A stretch of DNA of 64,000 nt from an uncultured Candidatus Saccharibacteria bacterium (GTDB lineage Bacteria; Patescibacteriota; Minisyncoccia; Phycocordibacterales; UBA2100): assembly GCA_964462785.1 (NCBI GenBank), contig CAYWZA010000003.1, forward strand, positions 1-64,000. The letters run 5' to 3'. Positions 3,078 through 52,132 of this stretch are shown in pieces. The first letter of the stretch is position 1. Each line of letters begins with the position of its first letter. The notes under the pieces are model-generated. The model was not told where the DNA came from. It searched no databases and saw only the letters and a program-made list of their open reading frames with translations. The position numbers and the translations under genes were made by a program.

Positions 3078-3095
3078 AAGTTTATTTTATCAGAT

Positions 3096-35807: not shown

Positions 35808-37583
35808 TTACCCAGTCCAGTTAAATAACAAGATCGAAAAATCCGCCAAATTCACCTTGCCATCTCCACTGAAATCAGCTCCGAGATCGTTCGTGCCCCA
35901 TGAGGACAACATAATTGAGAAGTCAACGAGGTTAACCTTTTGATCACCATTGATGTCGGTTTTGAGAGATGACGCGCTGCGTGCCGCAGATTCCCCAACA
36001 CCGATGAATGTCGGTCCGCTCAATTCGCTTTGCAATTGACTGCTGATAACTGTTCGTGCACGTATGTCGTATGTACCACGTGAGAAATCCTTCCCGTTCA
36101 CGGCAATGACCCAGCTGCCATCCGGCACCTGTGCCCCTCGCCCCTTTGAGGCGGTGGCGGTGAATTTCTTCGCTTCCGCCAAACTACTGCCCTGTCGTCG
36201 TATGAACACCTCGACAGTACTCCCCGGAACACTCTCCCCGACGATATCGAATGATTCTCCGACAGCAAGTGCTGTCTTGCTTGGCGCAAACGTCGGGGCG
36301 AGCACCACATTCGAAATGCTGTTACTCGTACCCGCAGCAATGGCAAGAGTTGAAGAAAACGACGCTGATCGTCGTTTACGCACATCGTCGGCATAGAGCA
36401 TAAATGTATACGTGCCACGCTCTATACTCGGCAATATTGCCTTAAAATTTCCGTCTATGCCTGCCTGTGTGGTCATTTGTATCTTGCCATCTCTCAAAAT
36501 GGTGACGGTGCTGAGTGGCGAGGACCACCCTGACACATTGACGGTAGATAGGTGGAGCAACGAACTCCCGCCCCGAAAGGTGCCAGCGCCACCCGGTCCG
36601 GCACTCGGAAGTGTTACCGAAGAATCAAATTCGGGTGTGGGATTTAACGTAAAAGTAATTGCGTAGTCAGTAGTATTTTTTGTCTGATCAACGGTAATGC
36701 ATCGCACGTAGTAGTTGTAGGTCGTGTTGTTTTGATGGTTGTCGATTGTCTTATGGTGAATGGTTGATGACGAATTGCCAACCGTAAAGGTATTCGTCAT
36801 CGAATCGTAGTCGACGCCGGTTGTCGTCGCGTAACGACACGTGGCTGTATTATCTGTATCGAGAGCAATTTCAATTGAGGGGTGATTGGCTTCGACAGCG
36901 CCGGACGGGCGCCCGTTGGAGCGTACCGGCGCAGTCGATACGATTGTTCCTGTTACGGTCACCTGGCTAATGATTGCAATCATGGCGGTTGCGGTATCTA
37001 TGGTGGCATCCAATTGATCTTTAGTCGCAAGCGCAATGCGATATGAACCAGTCGAAGCGGTGTTCGTAATGTTTTGATCCCCCGCGACTCCCGCTGTCGC
37101 AATAGTCCCCAGCTGTATTTCTACGACACTGCCCGCCCCAATGCCCGTAGTTGCATTGAGCGTGATGGTGATGGATCCGCTGCTGCCTGTCACCACAGCG
37201 ACCCCGTCGTTTGCTGCGCTAGCGCTCGCGGCGAGTGAGCGATCAGAGGATGAGACAGCGAGATCGACATCGGTGTAGTCAAACGCGGATGGAATGGTGA
37301 GCGCACCTGCCGCGGGAGTGATGAGTATTTTCCCCGAAGCGGGAATGGCATTGGTGGCGGTAAATTGAATGGTGTGCATCGTACTGGTTGCTGGAGCTGA
37401 ATTGCCGATCGTATCGCTCACCATGGTGAGTGATGCGGCATGCGTGTATGGAGCCCATGCCAAAAAGCACGCCAGAGAAAAAAGCACGCAACACAATCGT
37501 GCGGTCATCATCATTACTATTATAAGCCTATTATTGATACGGGCTCCGCGCACCTTACCCACGTCGCCGTAAATCAACCGCAA
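35808..37583 (-). CDS. Secreted Ser/Thr/Ala-rich surface protein with a C-terminal dockerin-like domain
   Basis: Signal peptide; the likely start is an internal Met near 37514. C-terminal duplicated DxNxDxxVNxxD repeats (DINGDQKVNLVDFSIML...DFSGDGKVNLADFSILL). Confidence 0.6.
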   Translation of the reverse strand: MRLIYGDVGKVRGARINNRLIIVMMMTARLCCVLFSLACFLAWAPYTHAASLTMVSDTIGNSAPATSTMHTIQFTATNAIPASGKILITPAAGALTIPSAFDYTDVDLAVSSSDRSLAASASAANDGVAVVTGSSGSITITLNATTGIGAGSVVEIQLGTIATAGVAGDQNITNTASTGSYRIALATKDQLDATIDTATAMIAIISQVTVTGTIVSTAPVRSNGRPSGAVEANHPSIEIALDTDNTATCRYATTTGVDYDSMTNTFTVGNSSSTIHHKTIDNHQNNTTYNYYVRCITVDQTKNTTDYAITFTLNPTPEFDSSVTLPSAGPGGAGTFRGGSSLLHLSTVNVSGWSSPLSTVTILRDGKIQMTTQAGIDGNFKAILPSIERGTYTFMLYADDVRKRRSASFSSTLAIAAGTSNSISNVVLAPTFAPSKTALAVGESFDIVGESVPGSTVEVFIRRQGSSLAEAKKFTATASKGRGAQVPDGSWVIAVNGKDFSRGTYDIRARTVISSQLQSELSGPTFIGVGESAARSASSLKTDINGDQKVNLVDFSIMLSSWGTNDLGADFSGDGKVNLADFSILLFNWTG

Positions 37584-38010
37584 ATGTCGCGGCGCTCACA
37601 CTCGCGAATGGAGCGTAACCCCTACGCCAGTCGAGGTAGAAATTTGCCCCCACAAGTGCCGCGAGCACCACGCTCATGGCAAAGCTCGCGAGCGCCAACA
37701 TCTCCGCATTCCTATCTCCACCGGTCATACGTTCCTCAAATGCGCGGACAGCGTCCTCCCTGGCACGAAGTTCTTCTTCTTTTGCTAACAGCTCTACTGC
37801 GGCTGTGTTGTAAGGGTTTGGATCAACCGATGCCGCTACCCCCACCACCGCACTCGCCACCATCGTGTGCGCGGTGCGCGCCAGCGTTTGTGGAGAAACA
37901 CTGGTCACTGCATATCCGAATAGCAATACAGACGCGATAATGCCCACTGCCTGAAAACTATGGCGCCGCGAGACATGTGCTTGTGTGTAGGATCTATGCA
38001 TCGTAATCAA
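37555..38010 (-). CDS. Membrane protein with a coiled-coil segment (hypothetical)
   Basis: Two to three hydrophobic helices. Confidence 0.4.
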   Translation of the reverse strand: MITMHRSYTQAHVSRRHSFQAVGIIASVLLFGYAVTSVSPQTLARTAHTMVASAVVGVAASVDPNPYNTAAVELLAKEEELRAREDAVRAFEERMTGGDRNAEMLALASFAMSVVLAALVGANFYLDWRRGYAPFASVSAATFAVDLRRRG

Positions 38011-38018
38011 TGCGAATA

Positions 38019-39095
38019 CTAAGCAAACAAAAGGAACAGAACGACGAGCAGCGCAACGCAGCAGATAAAGACTGAGAGTGCCACAAATACCAAGCGTGAC
38101 GATGAGCGCTGATATTTCTTTGCGTAGTATTCAGCTCCCCTATCTCCTGGAGTGACCCCCATGTCGGCAAGCTTCTTGCGGATATACAACTTGACTGACA
38201 TGTAGAGCGCGAGCACAACAAGGAGCAATGAACCGAGGGTAATTGCGATCAATTTGAGCGGCAGCACCCAAAACGACGTGCTTGCCGAAATGGTTTTACG
38301 AACTTGATCACCATAGACCAAGCTTGCAATGGCCTGATACCTTCCGAAAGCAAGATCTTCTGATTCCCAGGTGGCAGTATAGGTTCTTTCAGCGGCAGGA
38401 AATACCGCTCCTGCAGTTGCATTTACTTCGATCGAAGCGACCTGCTTCCCAAACATGTCGGTAATTTCAATAAGTCCGTGTGGTCGTAGGAGCACATTCC
38501 CGAGATTTTCAGTTCGCATATTGAATGTGACTGGCGGTGCGCCATACACAAGTCGTTCGGTGGAAAGCTCGCGCAAGCGCATCTCCTCCACTGCATCACC
38601 CGAAATTCTCAAACTTATGATATTACCCACACGAAATCCGACTCCCGCACCACTTTGTGTGAGTTTTGGCGGATCGCTGGCGAGCAGTATGCTGCCGAAA
38701 TGGGATCCTGGAGTCGCATCCGCGGGCACGCGCACAGTGAAAGGAACGGTGGTCTCTTCCCCCGGTTTGAGATTCAATGACCGCTTATTGAATGATATCC
38801 ATGTGCTCATCTCGTAGGGCGTCTTCTCGCCTTCTTCAGAAAATATTGGTCGTCCACCATCGTCAGCGCCCTTAATATCCTGCGCGACCAGATACAATAG
38901 CTTCTCAGTGTCTGCGATATTCCTCACCTGAATCGAGTAGTGGTACGTGCCGCCTGCATCGACTTGATCTTCAATAATCGCCGGTCGTATATCGACACCC
39001 TCACCCTGCTGTGCAAACACAAGCGATGCACTCAAGATCAGAGCAGACAAAAAAATAAAACCCAGTGCACATATCCTGTAAAGGCTTGTGGTCAT
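38019..39095 (-). CDS. Cell-surface protein, signal peptide + beta-sandwich + C-terminal TM anchor (DUF916/DUF3324-like), paralog A
   Basis: Signal peptide; VPFTVRVPADATPGSHFGSILL block shared with paralogs B-D; C-terminal TM followed by a basic tail. Confidence 0.5.
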   Translation of the reverse strand: MTTSLYRICALGFIFLSALILSASLVFAQQGEGVDIRPAIIEDQVDAGGTYHYSIQVRNIADTEKLLYLVAQDIKGADDGGRPIFSEEGEKTPYEMSTWISFNKRSLNLKPGEETTVPFTVRVPADATPGSHFGSILLASDPPKLTQSGAGVGFRVGNIISLRISGDAVEEMRLRELSTERLVYGAPPVTFNMRTENLGNVLLRPHGLIEITDMFGKQVASIEVNATAGAVFPAAERTYTATWESEDLAFGRYQAIASLVYGDQVRKTISASTSFWVLPLKLIAITLGSLLLVVLALYMSVKLYIRKKLADMGVTPGDRGAEYYAKKYQRSSSRLVFVALSVFICCVALLVVLFLLFA

Positions 39096-39131
39096 ATAAA
39101 AACGATAATCTAATAGGTATTTGCACTATAC

Positions 39132-39330
39132 CATACGTATACACCCCCGCACTCTTGCGGGGGTGCAGAGCTTGTTTCGAAACCTGGGTTCCCAAACCGA
39201 GCGGCGTGTGTTCGTCGCCGAGAACCCGAGTCGGAGCCCTCAATGTGCTGGCGGCACATTGAGGGCGAGACTCGTGGTTCACAGGCAGAACACACGCCGC
39301 GTAGGTAGGGAGGGGTTTCGAAACATGCTC
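39132..39330. repeat. Nested perfect-palindrome element (10-, 16/17-, 12- and 13-bp stems)
   Basis: CACCCCCGCA/TGCGGGGGTG; GAGCTTGTTTCGAAACC/GGTTTCGAAACATGCTC; CGGCGTGTGTTC/GAACACACGCCG; GCCCTCAATGTGC/GCACATTGAGGGC. Contains CGAGTCGGAGC. Confidence 0.6.
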
Positions 39331-39356
39331 TGAACCTGTTTCATGCTAAGACCGCT

Positions 39357-40547
39357 TTAGAAGACCGGCGTTGCAACGTAGGTGAGTGTTGCGGTGTAAT
39401 CATCGCCCGCTTCCTGGAAGGCGGTGGTCTGGATTGCATACGCAACTGTTGTCGAACCGATATTGGCAGTGGTGCCGTTTGCCGGTCCCGTGTGGCTGAA
39501 GACTGCGCGAGTTGATGTTGAGAAGTTACCGGCATACCGAGTATCGGAAGTTCCAAATTCATTGGCGTTGATATCGTCATCGCTGGTGAGACCCCAATGA
39601 CCGTAGGTATTCACGCTACCGAAAGTACCTGTTGGTGCCGTCCACGCTGACGGCGTTGTTGTGCCGTTGCCATCAGCGAACACATCAATGGTGTCGCCGT
39701 TCGATGACGTAAGTGTCTGGTCTGCCTTTACGGTCACGGTAAAGCCGTTGGATGCGTTGGTTGTGACGTTAAGGCGCTGACCCACGACTTTCGGCACACC
39801 TGAGGTAAGTGACCCGAATGGTAAGGTCTGCGCGGAGCCTGATGTATCAACCGATGTAGTCGTACCGTTGATACCCACACCTGACGGCAAACCAGCAATC
39901 GCAAAACTGAATGTCGTATCAACAGATGCCGTTACGACAACGTCATCGATGATTGCGACCTGGACATCGATTGTGTCTTTGTCGGTGCCCTGACCCTGGT
40001 CTCTCGATGAGATGTGAATGTCATAGGAGCCAGCAACACTCGGGTTGGTGATTGGGCCGCTGGTAGACGCGATGAAGAATGATACCCCCGCCGTCGAGGT
40101 TGCAATGAAGTTGTTAGCACACAGCGAAAGTGTGAGGAGTTCTGTGGTCGTGGAGACAAGAACTTTATTTGTCGCCGCGCCGCCGAGTGTACAGTTTGAA
40201 ACGACGGTGATGCTCGATGTCGCGCTAAAATCTTCTGCACCTAATTGACCGATTTCGAAACTGTTGCCGGATGGATCGAAATCGAATGCGATGGTGCCCG
40301 TAGCAGTACCACCCGCATTGGTGCTGATTCGACTGGGAACACTGAAGGTGAATGTGTGACCGGAAACCACGGACAAATCAGAATCAGTGAGCGTGTCGCT
40401 AGCATCATAGAAGGATGCCGCCTGGCTGCGATTGAGCATACTTGGTGCACCGGTCGCCCAGAAGAGAATTGAGAGCATGAGAATTGCTGCGAGCTTGCTT
40501 GAGCGTAGCGCGCGGAGCGATACTGTTAGTGCACCAAGTGGATTCAT
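39357..40547 (-). CDS. Secreted WxL-like surface protein 1
   Basis: Signal peptide, Ser/Thr-rich, internal YGHWGLTSDD (W-x-L-like) and C-terminal YTATLTYVATPVF resembling the WxL-domain terminus. Confidence 0.4.
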   Translation of the reverse strand: MNPLGALTVSLRALRSSKLAAILMLSILFWATGAPSMLNRSQAASFYDASDTLTDSDLSVVSGHTFTFSVPSRISTNAGGTATGTIAFDFDPSGNSFEIGQLGAEDFSATSSITVVSNCTLGGAATNKVLVSTTTELLTLSLCANNFIATSTAGVSFFIASTSGPITNPSVAGSYDIHISSRDQGQGTDKDTIDVQVAIIDDVVVTASVDTTFSFAIAGLPSGVGINGTTTSVDTSGSAQTLPFGSLTSGVPKVVGQRLNVTTNASNGFTVTVKADQTLTSSNGDTIDVFADGNGTTTPSAWTAPTGTFGSVNTYGHWGLTSDDDINANEFGTSDTRYAGNFSTSTRAVFSHTGPANGTTANIGSTTVAYAIQTTAFQEAGDDYTATLTYVATPVF

Positions 40548-40729
40548 ACGGTTGGTTAAATGTTTATGTAAATAAATTTATTACTATCGCTGCACATGCC
40601 ACAAGTTTCGACCCTTGCAACAGGTTTCGCAGCTACTATTTCCTATAGCAGAAATTATATAGGACATATTAGGCAACGAACTTCACCTGTTGTGGATAAC
40701 TGACTTCATGTCTCAGAGATTTCCTTATT

Positions 40730-42046
40730 TCACTGCTGATTTTGAGCATTTAGTTTTGCAACATCTTCGTCCGTAATCGGTCTTTCTTCTTGAATTTTCA
40801 CCTCCTTGATTTCAAAGTGCCGCTCGGGCGTAAGCACGCTGCCGAGAAACCACTGTATGCCATATAGAGCTGCACCTACGACTCCGAGAAATAGAAAGAA
40901 TGCGTAATATTTCTTTACAAACATGCCGCCGGTCATCTGCCGCTCGGTCGTAGATGCTCCACTGCCCACCGATGGTTGCTGTTTGGCAACACTGCGTAAG
41001 TCCACTACCCCCTCGCGCAGTGGCTGCATAAACACTGACGCGTACCCTGCCGACATCTTGCTGTGTTCGCCTATGCCTGCGTATTGCCGTTCGAGGACAA
41101 GCGCACGCCTGATGTAGCGCCTGATAAACCACACGATCAGGAGTACGAAGAACGCAATGCTCCCAATCGTGACCGCAACCGGCACGACAGGAACAATCCA
41201 GAAATAGGTTTTAGACGATATATTTTGCCTGCCATTTTCTCCGAACGTCAGTGTCACTTCTGCGCTATAGCGCCCGATATCGAAAATATCCTGCTCACCC
41301 TCCCAAGAAAATTGAAATTTTCTCGTACTCTCGGGAAGCACATTTCCAAAATTGCTCTGTTGATTGATGAGCACCTTGCCGCGCTCCTTTCCCCACATAT
41401 TAAAGAGCGTGATATATCCTTGCGGTTGCAAGTGCGCGTTGCCGGTATTTTCAAAACGCAAAATAAAATCAGCCTGCGGCTCTTGATAGAGTGTCTGCGT
41501 CGTCCTGAATTCCCGAATCCGCGCGCTTTCATACACATCCCCTTTCACCCGCACAAATAAGAGCGATGTGACGAAACTTGAAATGCGCATCGCCGCTCCG
41601 GCCTCGACTGTCTCCGGCGGCTTGGTGCCGACAAGAATCGCTGCATAGTGCCCGCCCGGCGACGCATCAGCTGGAATATGCACCGTGAGAGGAATTTCCC
41701 CGCTCCTCCCCTTCGGAATCGTTATGGGATCTTTTGGAATCTCGATCCATCCGGCGAGTGTGTGCGCACGCGCATCGGCATCATCCGCTGTAAGCGGAAT
41801 GAAAGTGCCCTGCCCCGCCTCGCCTTCTGCTTTGAAGTTAACTACCTCTGCATAATAGGTAACATCGTACGTATTGCTGTTCACCACCTTGAGAGAACTG
41901 TTCCACGTCTCACCTGGAATAATGGAGAGTTGAAAAAGCGGCGGTGTGACAGTCACCGACAGGGTGTCCGGTGCAGCATGTGCTGAGAGAGGCACAGTGG
42001 CAGCGACACCGGCGAGAAAAGCGGCAACTTTGAGAAAAATGCTCAT
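40730..42046 (-). CDS. DUF916/DUF3324-like cell-surface protein, paralog B
   Basis: Signal peptide, IPLTVHIPADASPGGHYAAILVGTKPP block, C-terminal TM segment. Confidence 0.5.
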   Translation of the reverse strand: MSIFLKVAAFLAGVAATVPLSAHAAPDTLSVTVTPPLFQLSIIPGETWNSSLKVVNSNTYDVTYYAEVVNFKAEGEAGQGTFIPLTADDADARAHTLAGWIEIPKDPITIPKGRSGEIPLTVHIPADASPGGHYAAILVGTKPPETVEAGAAMRISSFVTSLLFVRVKGDVYESARIREFRTTQTLYQEPQADFILRFENTGNAHLQPQGYITLFNMWGKERGKVLINQQSNFGNVLPESTRKFQFSWEGEQDIFDIGRYSAEVTLTFGENGRQNISSKTYFWIVPVVPVAVTIGSIAFFVLLIVWFIRRYIRRALVLERQYAGIGEHSKMSAGYASVFMQPLREGVVDLRSVAKQQPSVGSGASTTERQMTGGMFVKKYYAFFLFLGVVGAALYGIQWFLGSVLTPERHFEIKEVKIQEERPITDEDVAKLNAQNQQ

Positions 42047-42050
42047 GGTC

Positions 42051-43538
42051 CTATCTCCGCTTGAGGTTAATTACATGACTGTCAGTGTGCTCGGGGTTGG
42101 CGCGCTGCTGGTGCAGTTTCTTGAGATCAATCGTGCCGCGACGATCGACAATGGGAGACTCCGTGTTGCGCGGAGTATTAACCCGTGGAGCGGCATCGCT
42201 TTCAAACGCATCGCGCAGGCTGCGTGTAGCCGGCTTTGGTGCGGTGGCGGGCGGTGGCACAGGGGCAGCGACACTCTGCACTGCCGGTGGCGCCGCCCGC
42301 CGCGAAAATGAGACGCGCGGTATCATATCGCCGATGAATGTGAACGGGGTTGCAGCAAGCGACGCAAATGCCGCCAATCGTGAAGTGATGCCCGGCGTAT
42401 GCGCATCCACAATCGCGCTGATCTCATGCGGTTGGTGTTTCAGAAACCCTGCGAGTGCAAGCTTGCCCAAATGCCGATCCTCAAACCACTTGTGGAAGTA
42501 GAGCGCGAAGAAAATAATCGCGATCATGCTCACAATAAACAGCGTCAAGAGCTGCTTCCACGGCACTATCCAAAAATAAATCGTGTCTTGCACCGACGCA
42601 CCTTGCCCACGCCCGTAATCGACAGTCAGAAATGCTTTGTACCTGCCAAATCCATCAACCGCGCTCCACACGGAAGCAAGCTGTGCCACTTGATCCGGCG
42701 CATAGGATTTGCCCTCGCCGTTGATGCCCACCGCCGCGACCTCCTCCCCCTTTCTATTATAGATACGGATCTCGCCGCGCGGCGAAAGCTCTTGATTCCC
42801 GATATTTTCAAGCTGGTAATTAAAGAGCACATCGTCGCCCGAAAAATAAAAACTGTCAGTAAAGAATTTGTTGAGCTGCATTACCTCTTTCACATTCGCT
42901 TTAACCTCCACATTCACCATCAGGAATGCGAGCGGCGGACCTGACTCAGCTGCCGAGCGCGAGCTGCCATCCCCAAAGCTGATGCGCGCATGATATGAGC
43001 CGGCAATCGCATTCATATTGACGCGAATGACAAACGGAATAACCTTCTCCTCTCCAGGACCAAGCTCGACAACACCGCGCGATAGCTCGATCCAATTGGC
43101 GAGCGACGCCGCGCGATCACTGGAATCTGTTGCATTCACAAACTCCTGCTTGCCATCTTCGGCGCTCACATTATTGACCGATGGATAGAGCGTCAGTTTG
43201 CGATTACTGGTATTGACCAGCGTGATTGATTCTTTAAGAATGTCGCGCGCCTGTGCCGTTTCATCGATCACGACTGGCTCGATCGAGAGTTCGGCAGATT
43301 GCTGCTCAGCGGCATGCAGGGCAAGCGGTATGCAAAAAATTACAATGAGGTACAGAAGCGCAAATGCAGGTGCGCGCGAGCCTAATGACTTTTGGTCACT
43401 TCGGACTGTATCACCACTGCGCTGGAAAAACACGTGTGCATGCGCGCTGCGCGATGCTCGCTTACACCTCATTTGCGCTTCTGTGTACGCAGCTCGAATG
43501 CTCAGAGTCGAAAATTTTTCGTTCAGCCAATGTCGCAT
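42051..43538 (-). CDS. DUF916/DUF3324-like cell-surface protein, paralog C
   Basis: Start probably at an internal Met near 43472. VIPFVIRVNMNAIAGSYHARISFGDG block and C-terminal TM. Confidence 0.5.
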   Translation of the reverse strand: MRHWLNEKFSTLSIRAAYTEAQMRCKRASRSAHAHVFFQRSGDTVRSDQKSLGSRAPAFALLYLIVIFCIPLALHAAEQQSAELSIEPVVIDETAQARDILKESITLVNTSNRKLTLYPSVNNVSAEDGKQEFVNATDSSDRAASLANWIELSRGVVELGPGEEKVIPFVIRVNMNAIAGSYHARISFGDGSSRSAAESGPPLAFLMVNVEVKANVKEVMQLNKFFTDSFYFSGDDVLFNYQLENIGNQELSPRGEIRIYNRKGEEVAAVGINGEGKSYAPDQVAQLASVWSAVDGFGRYKAFLTVDYGRGQGASVQDTIYFWIVPWKQLLTLFIVSMIAIIFFALYFHKWFEDRHLGKLALAGFLKHQPHEISAIVDAHTPGITSRLAAFASLAATPFTFIGDMIPRVSFSRRAAPPAVQSVAAPVPPPATAPKPATRSLRDAFESDAAPRVNTPRNTESPIVDRRGTIDLKKLHQQRANPEHTDSHVINLKRR

Positions 43539-43558
43539 AAATAAAGTATACCGTTGAA

Positions 43559-44878
43559 TTAAAAGACGGGTGTCACGATATACACGATATTCGTGCTATA
43601 TGAACCGGAGCCCTGCTCATTGTGTGCTTCGACCTTGTAAACAATGTCTGTGGTCTTTTCGGTTGCAGGCCCGCTGTTAAATGCAACTTCTTTGGGGCTT
43701 CCGGTGAACTGTGCATACGTGTCATTTGCGGCAAATCGCGTCGATCCGTTTTCCAGCACGTCCTCACCGGCGTGGTATCCATAGCATCCGTAAGCTCCTC
43801 CCGAACACCCAGTCCCCCACGCAAGCGGACTCTCGTTGGTGCCTGTTACGGGGCTGATTTCAGATGAATCAGCAAGAAGCCCTTGCCGTTGAAATGCATA
43901 TATTTTGTAGCCGGAAACCGAGTTGGCGGAAACGGTGAGCCGGTGAGCCGCCTCAGTCGGCGTACCTATCGCAAGCGTCCCAAATGGGACCGATGTCGAT
44001 GTCGTTTCCACATCGGTCGTCACCCCTTCGGTTGCAGTCGATGCGGCGAGCCCATCTATAGAGAATGAGAGTGCCGCTCCTTCCACCACCAGACTTGGAT
44101 ACGATTCGCCGGTATTGAGCGGCACCGTGCTGCTACTCACGACATCAAAGAGACGGAAGAAATACACGGTGTTAGCGACAGCGCCCGACTGCTTGAGTGT
44201 GAATTCATATTCGGTGATTGCGCTCGCTGTGTGCGTAAAGGTGCTGGTGGTCGTGCCGATTTCATTGTGCGTGCCGCAGCCGTTTCCAATCTGCAACGCA
44301 CACGCATCCGCATCGGAAAGTACTTTCGTGGTGATGGTCACGTTATCAACACCCGCACCGTTTGCATAGCACCAGCCCGAACTGCCAGTGCACTCCCAAT
44401 CGGCGGCAAGTGTGCGCACGTACTCTGAGAAATCAGAGGATGTCGCATACTGCAGACGGAATTTTATGTTGCCGGATCCCACTCCCGCCGTTTCAGCAAC
44501 TGACACGCGCAGCTTGATCGTGTTGAGGTTCGCGATATTAGTTGGTGCAGTGTTTTCAGCCGCAAGCGCAGTACTCGGCGTCACACTATTCTCATCGTCA
44601 TACCAGCGCCAATTTTGCGTCTTCGGCGTGAATGATTCGAAAAACATCTCGCCACCGTTCAAGGTGAAATTGGCGCTGCTCGCCGCTTCATTTGAGATCT
44701 CTCCCCCGCCACTTACATGCGTAAAGTTTGTCGAAGTCGACGTGCCGCCGACGTCATTCGTATTCGGATCTTTCGCGGTAAAATTCGTACTCGTAAAATC
44801 AGCCGCAAACGCAAACGGCGCGAAAATAACACTGACGAGTGTTACCATCACGACGCTGCTTGGTACGACTTTCTGCAT
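43559..44878 (-). CDS. Secreted WxL-like surface protein 2
   Basis: Signal peptide; SPLAWGTGCSGG and C-terminal YSTNIVYIVTPVF, same terminus as protein 1. Confidence 0.4.
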   Translation of the reverse strand: MQKVVPSSVVMVTLVSVIFAPFAFAADFTSTNFTAKDPNTNDVGGTSTSTNFTHVSGGGEISNEAASSANFTLNGGEMFFESFTPKTQNWRWYDDENSVTPSTALAAENTAPTNIANLNTIKLRVSVAETAGVGSGNIKFRLQYATSSDFSEYVRTLAADWECTGSSGWCYANGAGVDNVTITTKVLSDADACALQIGNGCGTHNEIGTTTSTFTHTASAITEYEFTLKQSGAVANTVYFFRLFDVVSSSTVPLNTGESYPSLVVEGAALSFSIDGLAASTATEGVTTDVETTSTSVPFGTLAIGTPTEAAHRLTVSANSVSGYKIYAFQRQGLLADSSEISPVTGTNESPLAWGTGCSGGAYGCYGYHAGEDVLENGSTRFAANDTYAQFTGSPKEVAFNSGPATEKTTDIVYKVEAHNEQGSGSYSTNIVYIVTPVF

Positions 44879-44880
44879 GG

Positions 44881-45345
44881 TTATTGAACTTCGGTTGTAA
44901 TTGGCGCCACCTCGATCAGTTTATTTTGAGCCGGATCATAGAGGTACGCTTTGCGCGCCTGCGTATAAATGAGCACTTTATATCCGACTTTTGCATTCGC
45001 GAAAAATGCTTGATCTTTCAATTTTTCAGGATCGGATACAGTCGCCACGGTCGGCTCCTCGCCTTCTGGGAGCGCAATAAGCCTGCCGACTTTTTCAATG
45101 AGATCTTTTGCCTCAATCGTCGTCTCGACTTCCGGCGTTGCGCTCTTGGTGTCAGTGGAAATTTCTGCTCCGTCTGGTTTGAAAAAGAAAACATACATTG
45201 CCCCGGCGAGTACGGCGAGAGCCACGAGCCCGATCACTGCCGGCGGCACTCGCCTCGGCGCAGGCGGTCGCAGCGCTGGGCTGGGACTCTCTGCCGCCAC
45301 CTTTGCCGGTCGCTTCAAACTCACTATCAGTGATTCGTCGTTCAT
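44881..45345 (-). CDS. Membrane-anchored hypothetical protein
   Basis: N-terminal Pro/Ala-rich region and one TM helix; tight spacing within the operon. Confidence 0.4.
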   Translation of the reverse strand: MNDESLIVSLKRPAKVAAESPSPALRPPAPRRVPPAVIGLVALAVLAGAMYVFFFKPDGAEISTDTKSATPEVETTIEAKDLIEKVGRLIALPEGEEPTVATVSDPEKLKDQAFFANAKVGYKVLIYTQARKAYLYDPAQNKLIEVAPITTEVQ

Positions 45346-45351
45346 ATATTT

Positions 45352-48300
45352 TTATAATTCTGCACTACTAATAGCAGCCGCATCCCCCGTTTCAACCGCG
45401 GTTTCTGATGCCGGTTGTTCGCTTGGTGTTTCTGCTGCCGGTGTCGATTCGACAACCGAATCTTCCGACGCAGGCTCGGGATTTGCAGTTGTCTCCCCGG
45501 CCGGTGATTCTTGCGGCGCAGCCGGCTCACTGCTGCTTTCACCTTCCGCATCCACCGCTGTAACAGACATCATCGATTCATCAGCAGGGGGCATATCGGG
45601 CAGACCGTCTCCGACTACAACGACGCGCGTCACTTCAGCCACATGCCCATCAGAATCGACCGCGCGATACATAATCAAATATTCTGTGGATGAGCTGGTG
45701 TCGAGCATGACATGATCAACTTCCTCGCTATCGACAAACGTATAGATGCCGAGGTTTTGGTCTTTGTCGTCTGTCACGGTTGCGCCCAAGTCTATATACG
45801 TGTCCCCAATACCGATCTGCGCAGGATTGTTTCCGTTGAGCGTAATGACAGGGACTTCAATCGACGTCTTGGGAGCCGACGAATCTATTGTCGCCGTGAG
45901 ATCCTCTGCGCCACACTTCCCGGCAAATGTTTGCAGTATTCCCGAGACAACTTTTGCACAATACGGATCGCCGTTCATATCGTCATACATCGTGATGCCG
46001 GTCGGCTTCTCCGGAGAGCCGACTTCAAGACCGTTCGCCGTAAGCGCACCCGCGAAGAGTGCGTTGCCCAGCGCATCGACAGACACCAAAAGCGCCGCAT
46101 CCGAGCTTGATGCGTTTTCAAAGGTGAGCGTGAGATCATTTTCATTCACTCGTTCAATCAGTAGTCTTCCACCCTCCACGATCCGCATGCGAATATCTTT
46201 CTCGACCGGCTCGATGGCATTTACGACCAGCGTGTCTGCAATCACGCGCGGCGAAATAATTTCAAGTCCTGCCGCAAGACGATCAGTGAATACTTCGGAG
46301 AGCGTAGTTGCGACAGTGATCTCCTTTTTTTCTTGCAGCATGCCAGCAAGAATAATACGCCCGTAATCAAGATCCGACGTAATCACATCCATGTTGATTC
46401 CCGAGTCGCGCAGTGCTACTTTGAGAAGTGCCCCAGTGGAATATGATGTATTCACCATCACCAAGACGCTGCATTTCCCACTGTCGTCGCAGATAGCATC
46501 CTCAAGCGCGTGCCCGACAGTGACACCCGCCTTGGTAGCGCGCATGGCGACGCCCGGCTCGGATGAGACCGTGAGCAGATCCCCTGCTTTAATTTCACCG
46601 TTTTCTTTATTTGCCTTCACGGGCACGCGCCCGGCGAGCGCGATGGCGCGGGGATGCTTTGCTTTGCTGAATATGTCATACCCCATCGTCTCGTACGGCA
46701 CACTTGAAACTACACCGACCGCACTACTACCTTGCGTAGCCTTTTCAAGAACCGACGATTTCTGCAATCCGAGTTTCGAATCATATTCATAAGATGCTGT
46801 ACTGATAGCGACCACATCGCCGTGTTCGACATCATCTTTAGTCTCATACCACTCCGCCAAGTCAGCACCGCTCGATGTGTAGTTCATGGTGACAACGACA
46901 CCCTGTCCACCTTTCCCTCCTTGGGCTGCGGTGGTTGACTCTTCAACAATGCCACCACCCCCCCCTGAGCCATAGGCGAGACCCGCCTCGCCTTGCACTG
47001 ACTGAAGAGCGGCTGTGACGTGCCCGCCAGCCCCTCCCCCTCCCCAATAACTTGCGCCCCCGTTACCGCCAGTTCCCTCACCACCACTCAAGGCATTTGC
47101 TGCGCCGCCATTGCCACCCGCGAGACGGAGCTGCCCGACTGCCGTGGATGTCGCACCACCCGACCCACCCGCCAATCCTTCTGTGGCATTCGTATCGACT
47201 GAACTGTCTCCAAGCCCTCCCTGCCCTGCAAGCGCGACGACAAGCGAACCGAATGATGAATTGTTCCCCGCTGCGCCGGTGCCCGCAACACTCGTGGTGG
47301 CACCACCGTTGCCGACAGTAACCGTTTCAGTTGACCCCATGCTTTCTGCAGGAAGAATCGAAATTGAAGTACCTCCTGAACCCCCGCCTCCAGCGGCATC
47401 TTCACACGTCGTCGTATCTGAACAATCCGCTGCCCCACCCGCGCCACCTCCTGCAGTGACGATTATTTGTGTGAACGACAAGCCCGGATAATCTGCCTTG
47501 GTCCATGTGTCATTTAAAGTGAAGACCTCAACCGTGACTGCATCGACGCCTGTGTCCGAGCCACATACAACGGTGCCATTCGCATCGGTTTCAAGTGCCT
47601 TGGTGCAGTTCGTCAGCCCCGTGAGCTGCATCCGATTCGCTGCGATCCCGCCTGAAAATGTCGACGTCGAGTTTGTTCCTACGACATTCAAGAATCCCTG
47701 CAAGGTGGATGTGCCCGTCGTGCCGCCCTGAATCGTCGTCGTTGCGGTGCGACCGACTGTAATGTAATCGAGCCCGGAGATCGCGGTTGAGGACGCGTTC
47801 GTGATTGCAAGCAGCGCGGGAAGTGAGAGTGTCACCGCTCCCGTCGCGCCTGATGCAGAAATCTGATTCGTCGTACCAGTGATGGAGGTGACCCCACTGT
47901 TGGTTACGGCACCATCTGCATACGTGAGCCCGCCGGAGAAGGTGGTGGTCGCTGTCCATGTTGGTATGCCATTTAATAGTGCGAGTACCTGCCCTGCAGT
48001 GCCCGCCGTTGTCGTCGCAAGTGCGCTCGTGCCGTTACCATAGAGAATCGTGCCCGCGACAACACTCGCCCAGCCGGTGCCGCCATTACTCACACCAAGA
48101 ATACCTGCCACATCATTCGCCAGATCAACGAGCGTTGCCGTCACCACCCCGGCAACTGCTTTCAATATTCCTCCGGCAGTTCCGAAAGTGAATCCGTTTG
48201 AAACGACGAGATTCGAAGTGGAAGCATTGCCAGTAACCGCGAGTGTCGTTGATGTGGCATTGGTAATTGTAGATGTTGAAAACGAGGCACCGGATGCGGA

Positions 48301-48897
48301 GACCGCGCCGGTAAGCGCCATGCTTCCGCCGGAGAGCACAGGAATATTATTGCCCGTCGGTGTTTGTGACGGGGTGAACCCGCCCACAGTGCCCGCGTTG
48401 ATTGCGTACGCGGAAGAGAGGATGCGCTGACGCGGAGAAAGTGTCTCGTATGTTTCGACTCCATCCCCCGTCGCGCATGTCGCGCCCACCTTATCAGCAA
48501 CTTGCACGTTTAAATACACTTCATCGCTGTCTTGAAAATTGTAATCGAGCGTATCACCGCCAACGCTCGTGTCGCCGATGCCGACAGTAAACACTCCATT
48601 GATAACTGATACCGTCGAAGTTGATGGTCCTGAGGATGGCCACAGCTTCACATCACCCCCTCCCACCACCGCATCATCGTAAAGCGAGAAGGTGAAGCAA
48701 TAATCGGTCCCCGCACCACCGAGCAGCGTGCCGCTTTCATCCATGAGCCGCCCTTGATAGTTGAGAATTTTTGGCACACCGGTTGCGGCAAACGCCGGCG
48801 CAACAAAAATCACCATGAACACCACACCAAGGATGAATGCGATCATGCGCGAAGCATGAGCATGGGTGCGGCTACGTCGATACGCGCGTGCATTCAT
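45352..48897 (-). CDS. Giant secreted protein (~1180 aa) with tail-fibre-like repeats, a collagen/Gly-rich tract, a peptidase S74 intramolecular-chaperone domain, Ig-like regions and an acidic tail
   Basis: Signal peptide from the internal Met MNARAY... Gly-rich GGAGG repeats. S74 motif block ADLAEWYETKDDVEHGDVVAIS...AIALAGRVPVKANKENGEIKAGDLLTVSSEPGVAMRATKAG. The ATGA overlap couples its start to the upstream HTH gene stop. Confidence 0.6.
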   Translation of the reverse strand: MNARAYRRSRTHAHASRMIAFILGVVFMVIFVAPAFAATGVPKILNYQGRLMDESGTLLGGAGTDYCFTFSLYDDAVVGGGDVKLWPSSGPSTSTVSVINGVFTVGIGDTSVGGDTLDYNFQDSDEVYLNVQVADKVGATCATGDGVETYETLSPRQRILSSAYAINAGTVGGFTPSQTPTGNNIPVLSGGSMALTGAVSASGASFSTSTITNATSTTLAVTGNASTSNLVVSNGFTFGTAGGILKAVAGVVTATLVDLANDVAGILGVSNGGTGWASVVAGTILYGNGTSALATTTAGTAGQVLALLNGIPTWTATTTFSGGLTYADGAVTNSGVTSITGTTNQISASGATGAVTLSLPALLAITNASSTAISGLDYITVGRTATTTIQGGTTGTSTLQGFLNVVGTNSTSTFSGGIAANRMQLTGLTNCTKALETDANGTVVCGSDTGVDAVTVEVFTLNDTWTKADYPGLSFTQIIVTAGGGAGGAADCSDTTTCEDAAGGGGSGGTSISILPAESMGSTETVTVGNGGATTSVAGTGAAGNNSSFGSLVVALAGQGGLGDSSVDTNATEGLAGGSGGATSTAVGQLRLAGGNGGAANALSGGEGTGGNGGASYWGGGGAGGHVTAALQSVQGEAGLAYGSGGGGGIVEESTTAAQGGKGGQGVVVTMNYTSSGADLAEWYETKDDVEHGDVVAISTASYEYDSKLGLQKSSVLEKATQGSSAVGVVSSVPYETMGYDIFSKAKHPRAIALAGRVPVKANKENGEIKAGDLLTVSSEPGVAMRATKAGVTVGHALEDAICDDSGKCSVLVMVNTSYSTGALLKVALRDSGINMDVITSDLDYGRIILAGMLQEKKEITVATTLSEVFTDRLAAGLEIISPRVIADTLVVNAIEPVEKDIRMRIVEGGRLLIERVNENDLTLTFENASSSDAALLVSVDALGNALFAGALTANGLEVGSPEKPTGITMYDDMNGDPYCAKVVSGILQTFAGKCGAEDLTATIDSSAPKTSIEVPVITLNGNNPAQIGIGDTYIDLGATVTDDKDQNLGIYTFVDSEEVDHVMLDTSSSTEYLIMYRAVDSDGHVAEVTRVVVVGDGLPDMPPADESMMSVTAVDAEGESSSEPAAPQESPAGETTANPEPASEDSVVESTPAAETPSEQPASETAVETGDAAAISSAEL

Positions 48898-49295
48898 ACG
48901 GCTTGTGATCGCAATTCCCATTTTTCGAGATTGTTGCGCTCTATTTTGTGATCCACACTGACCGCAAATATATATCCGAGCATGAGGAGAAATATCGCAA
49001 ACACGCCCACCGCAAACCACACCACAGCCGTATATACCGACGTCATTCCTTCGGCGGAAAACAGCCATGCCGTAAACGATGCTGACTCTTCCTTGGATCC
49101 ATCCTGCCTTTTCTTGTTCTTATCTATATATTCACGAATAGCGCTTTCGGTCGTCACCCACACTACATTTGAAAACACCTGCTTGCCCGACAGCTTCCCC
49201 GCCCTGATAAGCTGCCCAATATAATCAGCGCTGTATCCGGATATCTCGGATGCCTCCTTAAGCGATATATAGTCATTTTCCTTTGTCATAGCCAT
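48894..49295 (-). CDS. Membrane-tethered HTH DNA-binding protein (MerR/excisionase-type HTH plus C-terminal TM)
   Basis: N-terminal SLKEASEISGYSADYIGQLIRAGKL HTH and C-terminal hydrophobic helix VVWFAVGVFAIFLLMLGYIFAV. Confidence 0.5.
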   Translation of the reverse strand: MAMTKENDYISLKEASEISGYSADYIGQLIRAGKLSGKQVFSNVVWVTTESAIREYIDKNKKRQDGSKEESASFTAWLFSAEGMTSVYTAVVWFAVGVFAIFLLMLGYIFAVSVDHKIERNNLEKWELRSQAV

Positions 49296-51145: not shown

Positions 51146-52132
51146 TCAAGACACACTATCCATACGATAGCGGTGCAGCATATAGGCGGCGCCAAATCCT
51201 GCGATGAAGAGCAGCACAAGAAACGGGATAAGTGCTGAGGCGACTCCTGCAATGGACGCAAGCGCGGCGGCTGCTCCTTCGGCACGAATATCAAATTTGA
51301 TGCGTTTGGACGGCTCACTTTCCACGCCACTTGCGTCAACTGCCTGCGCCCAGAGGCGGTAGACGCCCGTCTCAAGATCCATATCAGAGACAAACGTGAA
51401 CGATCCGTCTGCCGCGCTCGTCACGCGTGTCAACACTTTCGGCTCATCGCCCCGTGCGAGCCAGATGTGGATGGCTGCGTCGGGAATCGCTGTCCCACGG
51501 ACTATCACGCGTTCTCCAAGCGGGACCGTCCCAAATGGATACTCCACGAGTGCCGGGGCTGGCGGAAGTGCCGGCTGATCAATTGACGCCCCCAGGACCT
51601 GCCCCTCTTCCACTATCTCTTCTTCAGGTAGTGCTGCAATGACTTGTTTCGGCTCTATGCCATAGATACCTGAGCGCATTGCGGTGATGATATTCGACCC
51701 CTTGCCGTCTGCAGAGAGCAGCGCACCGGAGGTGAGGCGTGCGGTGCTCAACGTGGTTCGTAATGCACGGAACGTGATCGTCGCCAAGAGTCCGTCAGTA
51801 CCGGCATACTTGCTATTCGTCCAACCGGAGAATCGGATCGTGCCTTCTTCATTTGAAAATTTAGGCGGCGTAGGCCAGAGCGAGAGAATCGAGCCGTATG
51901 TCGATACGTCTTCGACAACGAGCTCGTTAGGATCGAATAGGATCTCGGCTTCGGCTGCATTGATCGCAGTATCGCCCGTATCGGCGAGCACCTGCACATC
52001 AAAAAAATCGCCCACCGCGTACGTCCCGCGCTCGGGTGACACGTAAAGAACCGCATCTGCCGCAGCTACAAACGGGAGCGACACACATAACGCGCTGAGA
52101 AAAAATGAGACGCGAACGACGGACCGGTTCAT
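51146..52132 (-). CDS. Cohesin-like domain protein with a C-terminal TM anchor
   Basis: Signal peptide, a cohesin-like region (...ILFDPNELVV...GLLATITFRAL...) and a C-terminal TM helix. Confidence 0.5.
   Translation of the reverse strand: MNRSVVRVSFFLSALCVSLPFVAAADAVLYVSPERGTYAVGDFFDVQVLADTGDTAINAAEAEILFDPNELVVEDVSTYGSILSLWPTPPKFSNEEGTIRFSGWTNSKYAGTDGLLATITFRALRTTLSTARLTSGALLSADGKGSNIITAMRSGIYGIEPKQVIAALPEEEIVEEGQVLGASIDQPALPPAPALVEYPFGTVPLGERVIVRGTAIPDAAIHIWLARGDEPKVLTRVTSAADGSFTFVSDMDLETGVYRLWAQAVDASGVESEPSKRIKFDIRAEGAAAALASIAGVASALIPFLVLLFIAGFGAAYMLHRYRMDSVS

What the first reader, a model, noticed from the sequence alone, without database searches (positions are those of the whole stretch)
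38019..44878. Four paralogous SP-beta-sandwich-TM proteins interleaved with two secreted proteins ending in ...Y-x-x-x-[LI]-[TV]-Y-[VI]-x-T-P-V-F
- Paralogs A-D (38019-39095, 40730-42046, 42051-43538, 54229-55239) share a block around [VI]P[FL]TV[RH][VI]PADA[TS]PG..[HY], a C-terminal TM helix and a basic cytoplasmic tail.
- This architecture matches DUF916 + DUF3324 cell-surface proteins of Gram-positive WxL loci.
- The two secreted proteins (39357-40547, 43559-44878) share a distinctive C-terminus (…LTYVATPVF / …IVYIVTPVF) and an internal W-G-[LT] motif.
- These features resemble the two conserved WxL motifs, which mediate non-covalent cell-wall binding.
- Family expansion within one operon suggests diversification of a surface module.
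Basis: partly seen in the sequence, partly recalled or inferred. Interest (0 to 1): 0.6.

Follow-up and report, generated by a model that had tools for sequence, protein, structure and literature searches.

The report
Pam-type pilus operon with WxLIP-like chaperones
This is a candidate-phyla-radiation (Parcubacteria-type) version of the recently described Pam pilus operon, and its membrane-anchored chaperone-like proteins are clear relatives of the DUF916/DUF3324 "WxL-interacting" proteins of Gram-positive bacteria, so it ties together two surface systems that the literature I could search treats separately.

Summary
The ORFs are real and the paralogy holds. A, B and C are clear paralogs (102-170 bits); D is a weak outlier (about 35 bits). 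S1 and S2 share a roughly 180-aa C-terminal domain (30% identity) ending in Y-x3-[LI]-[TV]-Y-[VI]-x-T-P-V-F.

A family profile matches Firmicutes WxLIP (DUF916+DUF3324+TM) at 96.8-97.7% hhalign probability. The best solved-structure match of an AlphaFold model of A is E. faecium WxLIP bound to a WxL protein (9i25_C, E 4.7e-13). Chaperone-usher chaperones come next.

No WxL signal appears in Pfam, in a local HMM or in profile-profile comparison (P 0.03-0.08, at noise level). The internal W-G-[LT] motif is not positionally homologous between S1 and S2. Their C-terminal domain instead matches NCBIfam "Pam pilus system pilin subunit", below cut-off.

The best reading is a Pam-type donor-strand pilus of a Paceibacteria genome, with membrane-anchored chaperones. 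The cassette is conserved: about 20 of 80 species carry the 3-chaperone + 2-pilin form and 53 carry a 1+1 core. A dockerin protein carrying an S1-like N-terminal domain accompanies most loci (59 of 80). A cohesin/TM protein follows in the same operon in 34 loci. This is a new variant of a known kind.

The parts
38019..39095 (-). A: signal peptide, two Ig-like beta-sandwich domains (aa ~34-164 and 172-277), then a TM hairpin (277-295 and 335-353). It is a WxLIP (DUF916/DUF3324) homolog and the candidate membrane-anchored pilus chaperone. It is the member present in every related locus.
   Evidence: AF2 model with pLDDT 83.8. Foldseek top hits are 9i25_C and 9i1y, followed by CsuC, CfaA, Caf1M and FimC. 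PF06030 E 6e-5. hhalign 97.7%. TM scan. Census of related loci.
39357..40547 (-). S1: secreted pilin-like protein. It has an N-terminal beta domain (aa ~40-200), a conserved linker strand (VAIIDDVVVTASVDTTFSF) and a C-terminal Pam-pilin-like domain (208-396) ending in TLTYVATPVF. It is the 'core' pilin found in nearly all related loci.
   Evidence: BLASTP to the S2 C-terminal domain, 64 bits. The C-terminal-domain HMM, built on the S2 family plus S1 itself, gives 90-116 bits on independent S1 orthologs and 141 bits on S1. 6 of 39 orthologs hit NF058581. More than 1000 homologs, all unannotated. Census.
40730..42046 (-). B: paralog of A (WxLIP-like two-domain ectodomain, TM 287-305, second hydrophobic segment 383-401). 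It is part of the S2-C-B expansion module.
   Evidence: PF06030 E 1e-3. hhalign of B alone against the WxLIP ectodomain gives P 1.7e-4 over 218 colinear columns.
42051..43538 (-). C: paralog of A and B (TM 330-348, about 145-aa cytoplasmic tail). The listed start is probably about 45 codons too far upstream.
   Evidence: Orthologs are 441-446 aa.
43559..44878 (-). S2: secreted two-domain pilin-like protein. It has a disordered N-terminal extension with three repeats of about 19 aa (aa 27-80), an N-terminal beta domain (82-261), a linker, and a C-terminal domain (262-439) that matches the Pam pilin C-terminal domain.
   Evidence: NF058581 E 4.4e-6 covering profile positions 2-148 of 148 at aa 293-439. 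34 of 39 orthologs match, best E 8.4e-11. AF2 pLDDT 74 overall and 85-90 in the C-terminal domain.
44881..45345 (-). Small N-terminally anchored protein (154 aa). A small protein occupies the same position between the giant protein and the S2-like gene in relatives.
45352..49068 (-). Giant surface protein (1238 aa) with a glycine-rich 'tail-fibre-like' domain and an Ig-like domain. It heads the cassette.
   Evidence: Pfam Gly_rich_2 at 37.6 bits and Bact_surface_Ig-like at 39.2 bits. A giant gene occupies the same place in L014-L016 and L089. The Pam paper reports a conserved tail-fibre-like neighbour.
37555..38010 (-). Small two-TM protein (151 aa), always found directly downstream of the A-type gene.
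35808..37583 (-). Dockerin protein. It has an S1-like N-terminal domain plus linker strand (aa 46-229), then Ig-like domains and a C-terminal dockerin, and no pilin C-terminal domain. It is a candidate terminating/anchoring subunit (inferred).
   Evidence: Dockerin_1 at 27.2 bits, above cut-off. hhalign of the S1 family against the dockerin family gives 97.2%, P 3.7e-11 over 170 columns. A dockerin protein was detected next to the chaperone gene in 59 of the 80 related loci, many of the rest being cut by contig ends.
35200..35733 (-). Membrane-anchored thioredoxin-fold (Redoxin/TlpA-like) protein, conserved at the end of the cassette. It possibly handles disulfides for the cysteine-paired pilins (inferred).
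   Evidence: Pfam Redoxin at 65 bits. Same position in L012, L014 and L015. Invariant cysteines in the S2 family.
54229..55239 (-). D: divergent fourth paralog with a weak C-terminal TM and an RRRRRARMR tail. It lies outside the cassette, in a cohesin/dockerin cluster.
   Evidence: 24.4 bits against the chaperone HMM. 35-36 bits to A and B. No PF06030 hit. Not significant against WxLIP on its own.
51146..53073 (-). Two cohesin-domain proteins with C-terminal TM anchors (51146-52132 and 52129-53073). They are candidate membrane receptors for the dockerin proteins.
   Evidence: Pfam Cohesin at 35.5 bits, above cut-off, for the first and 15.7 bits for the second. TM scan. A cohesin/TM gene lies inside the pilin-chaperone-dockerin operon in 34 of 80 related loci.

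Best explanation
The region 35200-49068 (minus strand) is a conserved surface-filament cassette of a Paceibacteria/Parcubacteria (CPR) genome. It is a divergent relative of the Pam pilus operon described in 2026 for Ca. Mycosynbacter amalyticus.

Proposed mechanism:
1. [quoted passage not shown]
2. A, B and C are membrane-anchored two-domain chaperones.
3. Each chaperone caps the open groove of a pilin's C-terminal domain with one of its own strands, at the outer face of the membrane.
4. The chaperone then hands the pilin over by donor-strand exchange to the linker strand of the next subunit. The fibre therefore grows from its base, and no usher is needed because there is no outer membrane.

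What is shown:
- The paralogy of A-C and of the S1/S2 C-terminal domains.
- The two-domain folds.
- Homology of A-C to WxLIP, and their structural likeness to chaperone-usher chaperones.
- The Pam-pilin C-domain match.
- The conserved gene order.

What is inferred:
- Polymerisation and strand exchange, by analogy with the cryo-EM Pam filaments and with the solved WxLIP-WxL complex.
- The idea that the neighbouring dockerin protein ends the fibre and docks it on cohesin/TM proteins. That protein has an S1-type N-terminal domain and linker but no acceptor domain.
For: - NCBIfam NF058581 'Pam pilus system pilin subunit' matches the S2 C-terminal domain over the whole profile, E 4.4e-6. It matches 34 of 39 S2 orthologs, best E 8.4e-11, and 7 of 39 also hit the PamT model. 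It matches 6 of 39 S1 orthologs.
- The S1 and S2 C-terminal domains are homologous.
- AF2 gives two beta domains for S2, and two Ig-like domains plus TM helices for A.
- Foldseek with A ranks WxLIP bound to WxL first (9i25_C, E 4.7e-13). CsuC, CfaA, Caf1M, SafB, DraB, CupB2 and FimC follow at E 1e-10 to 1e-7.
- hhalign of the A/B/C family against WxLIP gives 97.7%, or 96.8% for the ectodomain alone.
- The Pam paper describes the same architecture: SP pilins with N-terminal domain, linker and truncated Ig-like C-terminal domain; FimC/PapD-like chaperones with a C-terminal TM helix; all in one operon; and a tail-fibre-like neighbour.
- Hassan et al. 2023 report that a WxLIP strand fills a gap in the WxL beta-sandwich.
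- Gene order is conserved in 3 fully read relatives and across 80 species representatives.
- Only S1 and S2 carry the C-terminal pilin domain in this window.
Against: - The Pam-pilin match is below NCBIfam's curated cut-off (26.9 against 55 bits), and S1 itself gives no hit.
- No CTD-only 'tip' pilin (PamT-like) is present in the window.
- No ATP-synthase neighbour is present, although the Pam paper reports one as conserved.
- PamA-D sequences and structures could not be obtained, so there is no direct comparison.
- Foldseek of the S2 model found only generic tandem-Ig matches.
- No complex was modelled, so strand donation in this locus is untested.
- It is not known which of A, B and C is a chaperone and which might be a PamR-like anchor. 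RbmA also appears among A's structural hits.
Confidence: 0.7

Rival explanations
1. WxL-type static surface complex. S1 and S2 are non-polymerising surface proteins, and their C-terminal domain binds peptidoglycan non-covalently. A-D are WxLIP-type partners that bind and stabilise them 1:1 at the cell surface, as currently proposed for Enterococcus and Lactobacillus WxL clusters.
For: - A-C are true WxLIP homologs.
- The cluster logic is similar: one WxLIP plus secreted proteins sharing a C-terminal domain.
- The C-terminal strand motif DY-x-T-x-L-T-Y-[IV]-A-T-P resembles WxL motif 2 (Y-T-T-T-L-T-W-x-L-x-x-x-P).
- 'NGFxVTV' lines up with WxL motif 1 'GWxLxV' in a colinear extended hhalign alignment.
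- The genome makes peptidoglycan: MurA and MurB are in the window.
Against: - No WxL signal in Pfam at E<=1 for S1, S2 or the S1 family, and no precomputed Pfam domain on the listed S2 homologs.
- The local WxL HMM scores below 6 bits.
- hhalign gives P 0.03-0.08, probability 1.5% or less, within the control range. 12 of 120 block shuffles do as well.
- Both tryptophans that name the family are absent.
- The C-terminal domain matches a family shown by cryo-EM to form filaments.
Confidence: 0.2
2. Cohesin-dockerin surface scaffold. The main function of the region is a cellulosome-like display system. S1, S2 and A-D are merely co-located, unrelated Ig-fold surface proteins.
For: - Three dockerin proteins and two cohesin/TM proteins lie in the window.
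- A cohesin gene lies inside the operon in 34 of 80 relatives.
Against: - S1, S2 and A-C carry no cohesin or dockerin domains.
- The pilin-chaperone pair is present in the large majority of related loci, whether or not a cohesin gene is nearby.
- The dockerin protein shares its N-terminal domain and linker with S1, which argues for one integrated system rather than co-location.
Confidence: 0.05

Closest known systems
Pam pilus system of Ca. Mycosynbacter amalyticus (Troman et al., bioRxiv 10.64898/2026.03.03.709456; NCBIfam NF058581, NF058579)
   Same: - It is a CPR system.
- The pilins are Sec-exported and built from an N-terminal beta-sandwich, a linker and a C-terminal Ig-like domain that ends at the protein's C-terminus.
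- Several SP + two-beta-domain + TM proteins lie in the same operon.
- The pilins carry paired cysteines.
- A tail-fibre-like giant protein is a neighbour.
- There is no usher.
   Different: - It comes from a different class: Paceibacteria/Parcubacteria rather than Saccharimonadia/Microgenomatia.
- The pilin match is below the family cut-off, and S1 is not detected at all.
- There is no CTD-only tip pilin.
- There is no ATP-synthase or CorB/MFS neighbourhood.
- The A family has a TM hairpin rather than a single TM helix.
- A dockerin-bearing protein with a pilin N-terminal domain, and cohesin/TM proteins, stand where the Pam model has the RbmA-like anchor PamR.
- S2 has a repeat-bearing disordered N-terminal extension.
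WxL gene clusters of Firmicutes: WxLIP (DUF916/PF06030 + DUF3324/PF11797 + TM) with small and large WxL proteins (Hassan et al. 2023, PMC10599100; PDB 9i1y, 9i25)
   Same: - The TM-anchored two-Ig-domain protein is homologous: hhalign 97%, and it is the top structural hit.
- It is encoded next to secreted proteins that share a C-terminal domain of about 150-190 aa ending the protein.
- In both systems a strand from the TM-anchored partner completes the partner's beta-sandwich. This is solved/predicted for WxL and predicted for Pam.
   Different: - The secreted partners do not test as WxL domains.
- W is replaced by F or Y at the two motif positions.
- There is no LPxTG protein.
- The lineage is CPR, not Bacilli.
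- The literature interprets WxL clusters as peptidoglycan-bound adhesin platforms, not as filaments.
Classical and archaic chaperone-usher pili (Pap/Fim, Csu, CFA/I, Caf1)
   Same: - The chaperone has a two-Ig-domain fold. The A model matches CsuC, CfaA, Caf1M, SafB and FimC at E 1e-10 to 1e-7, with TM-score 0.5-0.6 per target.
- Donor-strand complementation and exchange is the likely assembly principle.
   Different: - There is no outer membrane and no usher.
- The chaperones are membrane-anchored rather than soluble.
- The pilins have two domains, and the donor is an inter-domain linker rather than an N-terminal extension.
- No sequence-level relationship was detected.

Membership tests
Pam pilus system (CPR) | The pilin C-terminal domain belongs to the Pam pilin C family (NCBIfam NF058581). 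| tested here: inconclusive
   S2 matches at E 4.4e-6 and 26.9 bits over the full profile, but the curated cut-off is 55 bits. 34 of 39 S2 orthologs match, best E 8.4e-11. S1 gives no hit, and 6 of 39 S1 orthologs match weakly.
Pam pilus system (CPR) | [quoted passage not shown] | tested here: met
   The AF2 model of S2 shows two all-beta domains (85-265 and 270-439) joined by a strand. A signal-like N-terminus is present. S1 has the same layout by alignment. The missing-strand ('truncated') state itself could not be inspected.
Pam pilus system (CPR) | FimC/PapD-like two-domain chaperones with a C-terminal TM helix, encoded in the same operon. | tested here: met
   AF2 model of A. Foldseek hits to chaperone-usher chaperones. 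TM segments. The genes are adjacent. Direct comparison with PamC/PamD was not possible.
Pam pilus system (CPR) | Filament assembled by donor-strand exchange. | not testable with these tools
Pam pilus system (CPR) | Accessory set: CTD-only tip pilin PamT, RbmA-like TM anchor PamR, and an ATP-synthase neighbourhood. | tested here: not met
   Only S1 and S2 carry the C-terminal pilin domain in the window. No ATP synthase was seen among the ORFs scanned. A tail-fibre-like Gly_rich_2 neighbour is present. One of A, B or C could be PamR-like, since RbmA is among the structural hits, but this is unresolved.
WxL gene cluster (Firmicutes) | A WxLIP protein: DUF916 (PF06030) + DUF3324 (PF11797) + TM helix. 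| tested here: met
   PF06030 is sub-threshold in A, B and C but recorded for about half of the orthologs. The family profile hits PDB EfmWxLIP1 at E 1.8e-5. hhalign gives 97.7% for the whole protein, 96.8% for the ectodomain and 97.1% for domain 1. Domain 2 alone is weak: P 0.0016, probability 16%. Foldseek ranks WxLIP first. D on its own is not significant.
WxL gene cluster (Firmicutes) | Secreted partners carry a C-terminal WxL domain (PF13731) with two Trp-x-Leu motifs. | tested here: not met
   No PF13731 hit at E<=1 in S1, S2 or 39 S1-family members, and no precomputed Pfam domain on the 120 listed S2 homologs. The local WxL HMM scores below 6 bits. hhalign gives P 0.076 and 0.033, probability 1.5% or less, and a shuffle control gives 12 of 120. 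The motif positions hold F and Y instead of W.
WxL gene cluster (Firmicutes) | [quoted passage not shown] | tested here: not met
   The cluster shape is analogous (3 WxLIP-like plus 2 secreted partners), but the partners are not WxL proteins and no LPxTG protein was seen.
Chaperone-usher pili | An outer-membrane usher and a soluble periplasmic PapD-like chaperone. | tested here: not met
   No usher-like ORF lies in the cassette. The chaperone-like proteins are TM-anchored. Similarity is at fold level only.

The most novel reading that the evidence does not exclude
The WxL clusters of Firmicutes and the Pam pili of CPR bacteria are two branches of one ancient, usher-less, membrane-anchored-chaperone donor-strand system of single-membrane bacteria. 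This Paceibacteria cassette would be a bridging form: its chaperones still carry a recognisable DUF916 signature, and its pilins still match the Pam pilin C domain. On this reading the WxL domain is a diverged pilin acceptor domain, and WxLIP is a pilus chaperone rather than a host-binding adhesin. In Paceibacteria the fibre would also be ended and tethered by a subunit that has a pilin N-terminal domain and donor linker but a dockerin instead of an acceptor domain, plugged into a cohesin/TM protein.
Probability: 0.3. Interest if true: 0.75.

Novelty: new variant of a known kind. Interest (0 to 1): 0.55.

Why it matters
- Pam pili were reported in 2026 as a CPR-only system, found mainly in Saccharimonadia and Microgenomatia and distinct from all known filaments. 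This locus suggests that a related cassette is widespread in Paceibacteria/Parcubacteria. S1 has more than 1000 unannotated homologs, and 80 of 80 retrieved species representatives carry the chaperone.
- The chaperone component is homologous to the DUF916/DUF3324 WxLIP proteins of Enterococcus, Listeria, Lactobacillus and Bacillus. The Pam preprint does not mention this link, and a full-text search found no paper that makes it.
- That link gives a concrete, testable idea for WxL clusters, whose mechanism is still debated: WxLIP acts as a strand-donating chaperone for an incomplete Ig-like domain.
- The conserved dockerin and cohesin genes suggest a way of anchoring such a fibre that has not been described.

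Tried and rejected
- PDB sequence searches with S1, S2 and the S2-family profile found no Pam pilin or WxL chain. The PamA/PamB entries (25PZ, 25QA) are not in the copies available, and the paper's supplement holds no sequences.
- Foldseek of the S2 model against PDB gave only generic tandem-Ig hits with low TM-scores.
- I built WxL and WxLIP alignments from 11 Firmicutes plasmid loci. The WxL HMM and hhalign comparisons with the pilin C-terminal domain are not significant, even with a 159-sequence profile. A block-shuffle control confirms this.
- NCBIfam has no model that recognises A-D as Pam chaperones.
- The promoter/terminator scan of the cassette was no better than shuffles.
- The per-window conservation profile of the S2 family was flat and did not single out the linker.
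- Cluster look-ups and contig look-ups did not yield the source organism's name. Taxonomy rests on the names of relatives.
- I rejected the idea of a recent local paralog expansion, because the 3+2 order is conserved across species.

Full report
**What is in the sequence**

- All-against-all BLASTP shows that A (38019-39095), B (40730-42046) and C (42051-43538) are clear paralogs. A-B are 30% identical over 286 aa (170 bits), A-C score 112 bits and B-C score 102 bits.
- D (54229-55239) is a distant fourth member, at 35-36 bits. It scores 24.4 bits against the A/B/C family HMM, colinear over aa 84-262.
- Each protein has a signal-like N-terminus and a TM segment after the ectodomain. A and B have a second hydrophobic segment, forming a TM hairpin that is conserved in A's orthologs. 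C has a 145-aa tail.
- S1 (39357-40547) and S2 (43559-44878) share only their C-terminal ~180 residues: 30% identity, 64 bits, pair E 1e-15.
- The ending Y-x3-[LI]-[TV]-Y-[VI]-x-T-P-V-F is conserved across both ortholog families.
S2 W354 aligns with S1 W302, not with the W of 'HWGL', and that W is not conserved in the S1 family.

**Identity of the TM proteins**

- Pfam gives sub-threshold PF06030 (WxLIP_PGBD = DUF916) hits for A, B and C.
- About half of A's ~50%-identical orthologs carry a recorded PF06030 hit, and NCBI names some of them 'DUF916 domain-containing protein'.
- A profile of A's family hits the PDB sequence of E. faecium WxLIP1 at E 1.8e-5.
- An AlphaFold2 model of A (pLDDT 83.8) has two beta-sandwich domains followed by TM helices.
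- Its best Foldseek matches in the PDB are 9i25_C ('WxLIP from E. faecium locus A bound to long WxL', E 4.7e-13) and 9i1y.
- Next come the chaperones of chaperone-usher pili (CsuC, CfaA, Caf1M, DraB, SafB, CupB2, FimC) and RbmA.
- I fetched eleven Firmicutes WxL loci from plasmids and built WxLIP and WxL alignments.
- hhalign of the A/B/C family against WxLIP gives 97.7% (P 1.9e-12, 278 colinear columns). The ectodomain alone gives 96.8%, domain 1 alone gives 97.1%, and domain 2 alone is weak (P 0.0016). Cross-domain controls are at P 0.3-0.5.
- A six-way alignment shows the shared landmarks.

**Identity of the secreted proteins**

- No WxL (PF13731) signal appears at E<=1 in S1, S2 or 39 S1-family members. 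None of the 120 listed S2 homologs carries a precomputed Pfam domain.
- A local WxL HMM run without filters scores below 6 bits.
- hhalign gives P 0.076, or P 0.033 with a 159-sequence profile. Probability is 1.5% or less, unrelated controls reach P 0.015, and 12 of 120 block shuffles score as well.
- By eye there is a colinear resemblance. An 'FG' motif matches, 'NGFxVTV' sits opposite WxL motif 1 'GWxLxV', and the terminal 'DYxTTLTY[IV]ATP' sits opposite motif 2 'YTTTLTWxLxxxP'. This remains a lead, not a result.
- NCBIfam NF058581 'Pam pilus system pilin subunit' does match. It aligns to the S2 C-terminal domain over its whole length (E 4.4e-6, 26.9 bits, cut-off 55).
- It matches 34 of 39 S2 orthologs (best E 8.4e-11), and 7 of those also touch the PamT model. 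It matches 6 of 39 S1 orthologs.
- The AF2 model of S2 shows a disordered N-terminal extension, an N-terminal beta domain and a well-predicted C-terminal beta domain.

**What is known about the two reference systems**

- The Pam system comes from a 2026 preprint (10.64898/2026.03.03.709456). Cryo-EM of Ca. Mycosynbacter amalyticus filaments identified the pilins PamA and PamB. [quoted passage not shown]
- The same operon encodes the FimC/PapD-like chaperones PamC and PamD, which have a C-terminal TM helix. It also encodes a tip pilin PamT and an RbmA-like TM anchor PamR. A tail-fibre-like protein and ATP synthase are conserved neighbours.
- The preprint calls the system CPR-exclusive and places it mostly in Saccharimonadia and Microgenomatia. 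It does not mention WxL, DUF916, DUF3324, Paceibacteria or Parcubacteria.
- Hassan et al. [quoted passage not shown] They interpreted WxLIP as an adhesin-like linker.
- I found no paper connecting WxL/WxLIP with chaperone-usher or Pam systems.

**Context and conservation**

- The cassette runs on the minus strand in this order:
  1. giant Gly_rich_2 protein (45352-49068)
  2. small anchored protein (44881-45345)
  3. S2
  4. C
  5. B
  6. S1
  7. A
  8. small two-TM protein (37555-38010)
  9. dockerin protein (35808-37583)
  10. Redoxin (35200-35733)

- The same ten-gene order occurs in three relatives that were read in full.
- A scan of GTDB species representatives returned 80 loci, all labelled as CPR/Patescibacteria. 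About half are named Paceibacterota, Parcubacteria, Kaiser-, Adler- or Nomurabacteria, and the rest carry generic labels.
- A local HMM census of those loci found 53 with a minimal form: one S1-like pilin and one A-like chaperone, usually with a dockerin protein. Another 18 carry all five genes of the expanded form seen here (S2-like, C-like, B-like, S1-like, A-like), and two more are cut by a contig end.
- The paralog set is therefore an old, conserved module, not a local expansion.
- In 34 loci a cohesin/TM protein sits in the same operon, 3-6 kb downstream. In this window the cohesin/TM genes (51146-53073) lie next to D.
- The N-terminal 46-229 of the dockerin protein is homologous to the N-terminal domain plus linker of S1 (hhalign 97.2%, P 3.7e-11). 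It lacks the pilin C-terminal domain.

**Mechanism**

The most likely reading, at 0.7, is a Pam-type fibre.
- S1 and S2 are exported by Sec.
- Their incomplete C-terminal domains are capped by a strand of the membrane-anchored chaperones A, B and C.
- Subunits are joined by exchanging that strand for the linker strand of the next subunit.
- Folds, homologies and synteny are shown. Strand exchange and polymerisation are inferred from the Pam cryo-EM structures and the WxLIP-WxL complex.
- It is also an inference that the dockerin protein acts as a terminating, cohesin-docked base subunit, since it can donate a linker but cannot accept one.

The main rival, at 0.2, is a static WxL-like 1:1 surface complex. 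A pure cohesin-dockerin scaffold with unrelated neighbours is unlikely, at 0.05.

**Verdict**

- The locus is a new variant of a known kind (Pam pilus). It comes from a different CPR class, falls below family cut-offs and has different accessory genes.
- Its most useful by-product is solid evidence that the chaperone-like component is homologous to Firmicutes WxLIP. That suggests, but does not prove, that WxL clusters and Pam pili are related systems.
- The decisive tests could not be run here. They are multimer modelling, structural superposition on 25PZ/25QA and the 9I25 WxL chain, and scanning PamC/PamD for DUF916.

Noticed in passing
window 35808-37583 (-), with 51146-53073 (-), 53079-54206 (-), 50280-51008 (+); L089 8723-15586: A cohesin-dockerin pair is tied to the pilin/chaperone genes. 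The dockerin protein has an S1-like N-terminal domain and linker but no pilin C-terminal domain. In 34 of 80 related loci a cohesin/TM protein lies in the same operon. This may be a fibre terminator and anchor.
   Followed up: partly
window 43559-44878 (-), S2 aa 27-80: There are three repeats of about 19 aa centred on [ST]-S-x-[NS]-F. F33, F52 and F71 are conserved in 39 orthologs. The stretch is predicted disordered (pLDDT 33-38). It could be an N-terminal extension offering extra donor strands. Unexplained.
   Followed up: no
window 35200-35733 (-): A membrane-anchored Redoxin/TlpA-like thioredoxin-fold protein is conserved at the end of the cassette in relatives. The S2 family has six invariant cysteines and the S1 family has two nearly invariant ones, so it may handle pilin disulfides.
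   Followed up: partly
window 38019-39095 (-), A aa 277-353: The A family ends in a conserved TM hairpin: two TM segments with a basic loop containing conserved Y, K and M residues. Firmicutes WxLIP and the described PamC/PamD have a single TM helix.
   Followed up: partly
window 42051-43538 (-): The C ORF has an N-terminal extension of about 45 aa that its orthologs (441-446 aa) lack. The real start is probably an alternative start codon near 43406.
   Followed up: partly
window 690-3731 (-): A low-GC stretch (0.36-0.38, against about 0.52 elsewhere) encodes a TdeIII-type restriction endonuclease, an N6/N4 DNA methylase and an S24/LexA-like peptidase. It is probably a horizontally acquired restriction-modification island.
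   Followed up: partly
window 29801-32605 (-): A 934-aa protein has a TraG/TraD-type coupling-protein C-terminal domain, which may belong to the conjugation-like type IV secretion system reported in Patescibacteria.
   Followed up: no
L012 9312-9944 (GCA_009924895.1): In one relative the S1-type gene is reduced to a 210-aa ORF that starts at the linker strand and has no signal peptide (C-terminal domain only, ending ...ITYVATPVF). It lies next to an intact A-type gene. It may be a decayed cassette or a start-site or assembly artefact.
   Followed up: no
window 54229-57248 (-): Paralog D sits between a 647-aa N-terminally anchored, Thr/Ser-rich beta protein with no family match (55305-57248) and the dockerin/cohesin genes. 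No pilin C-terminal domain is nearby, so D's partner is unknown.
   Followed up: partly
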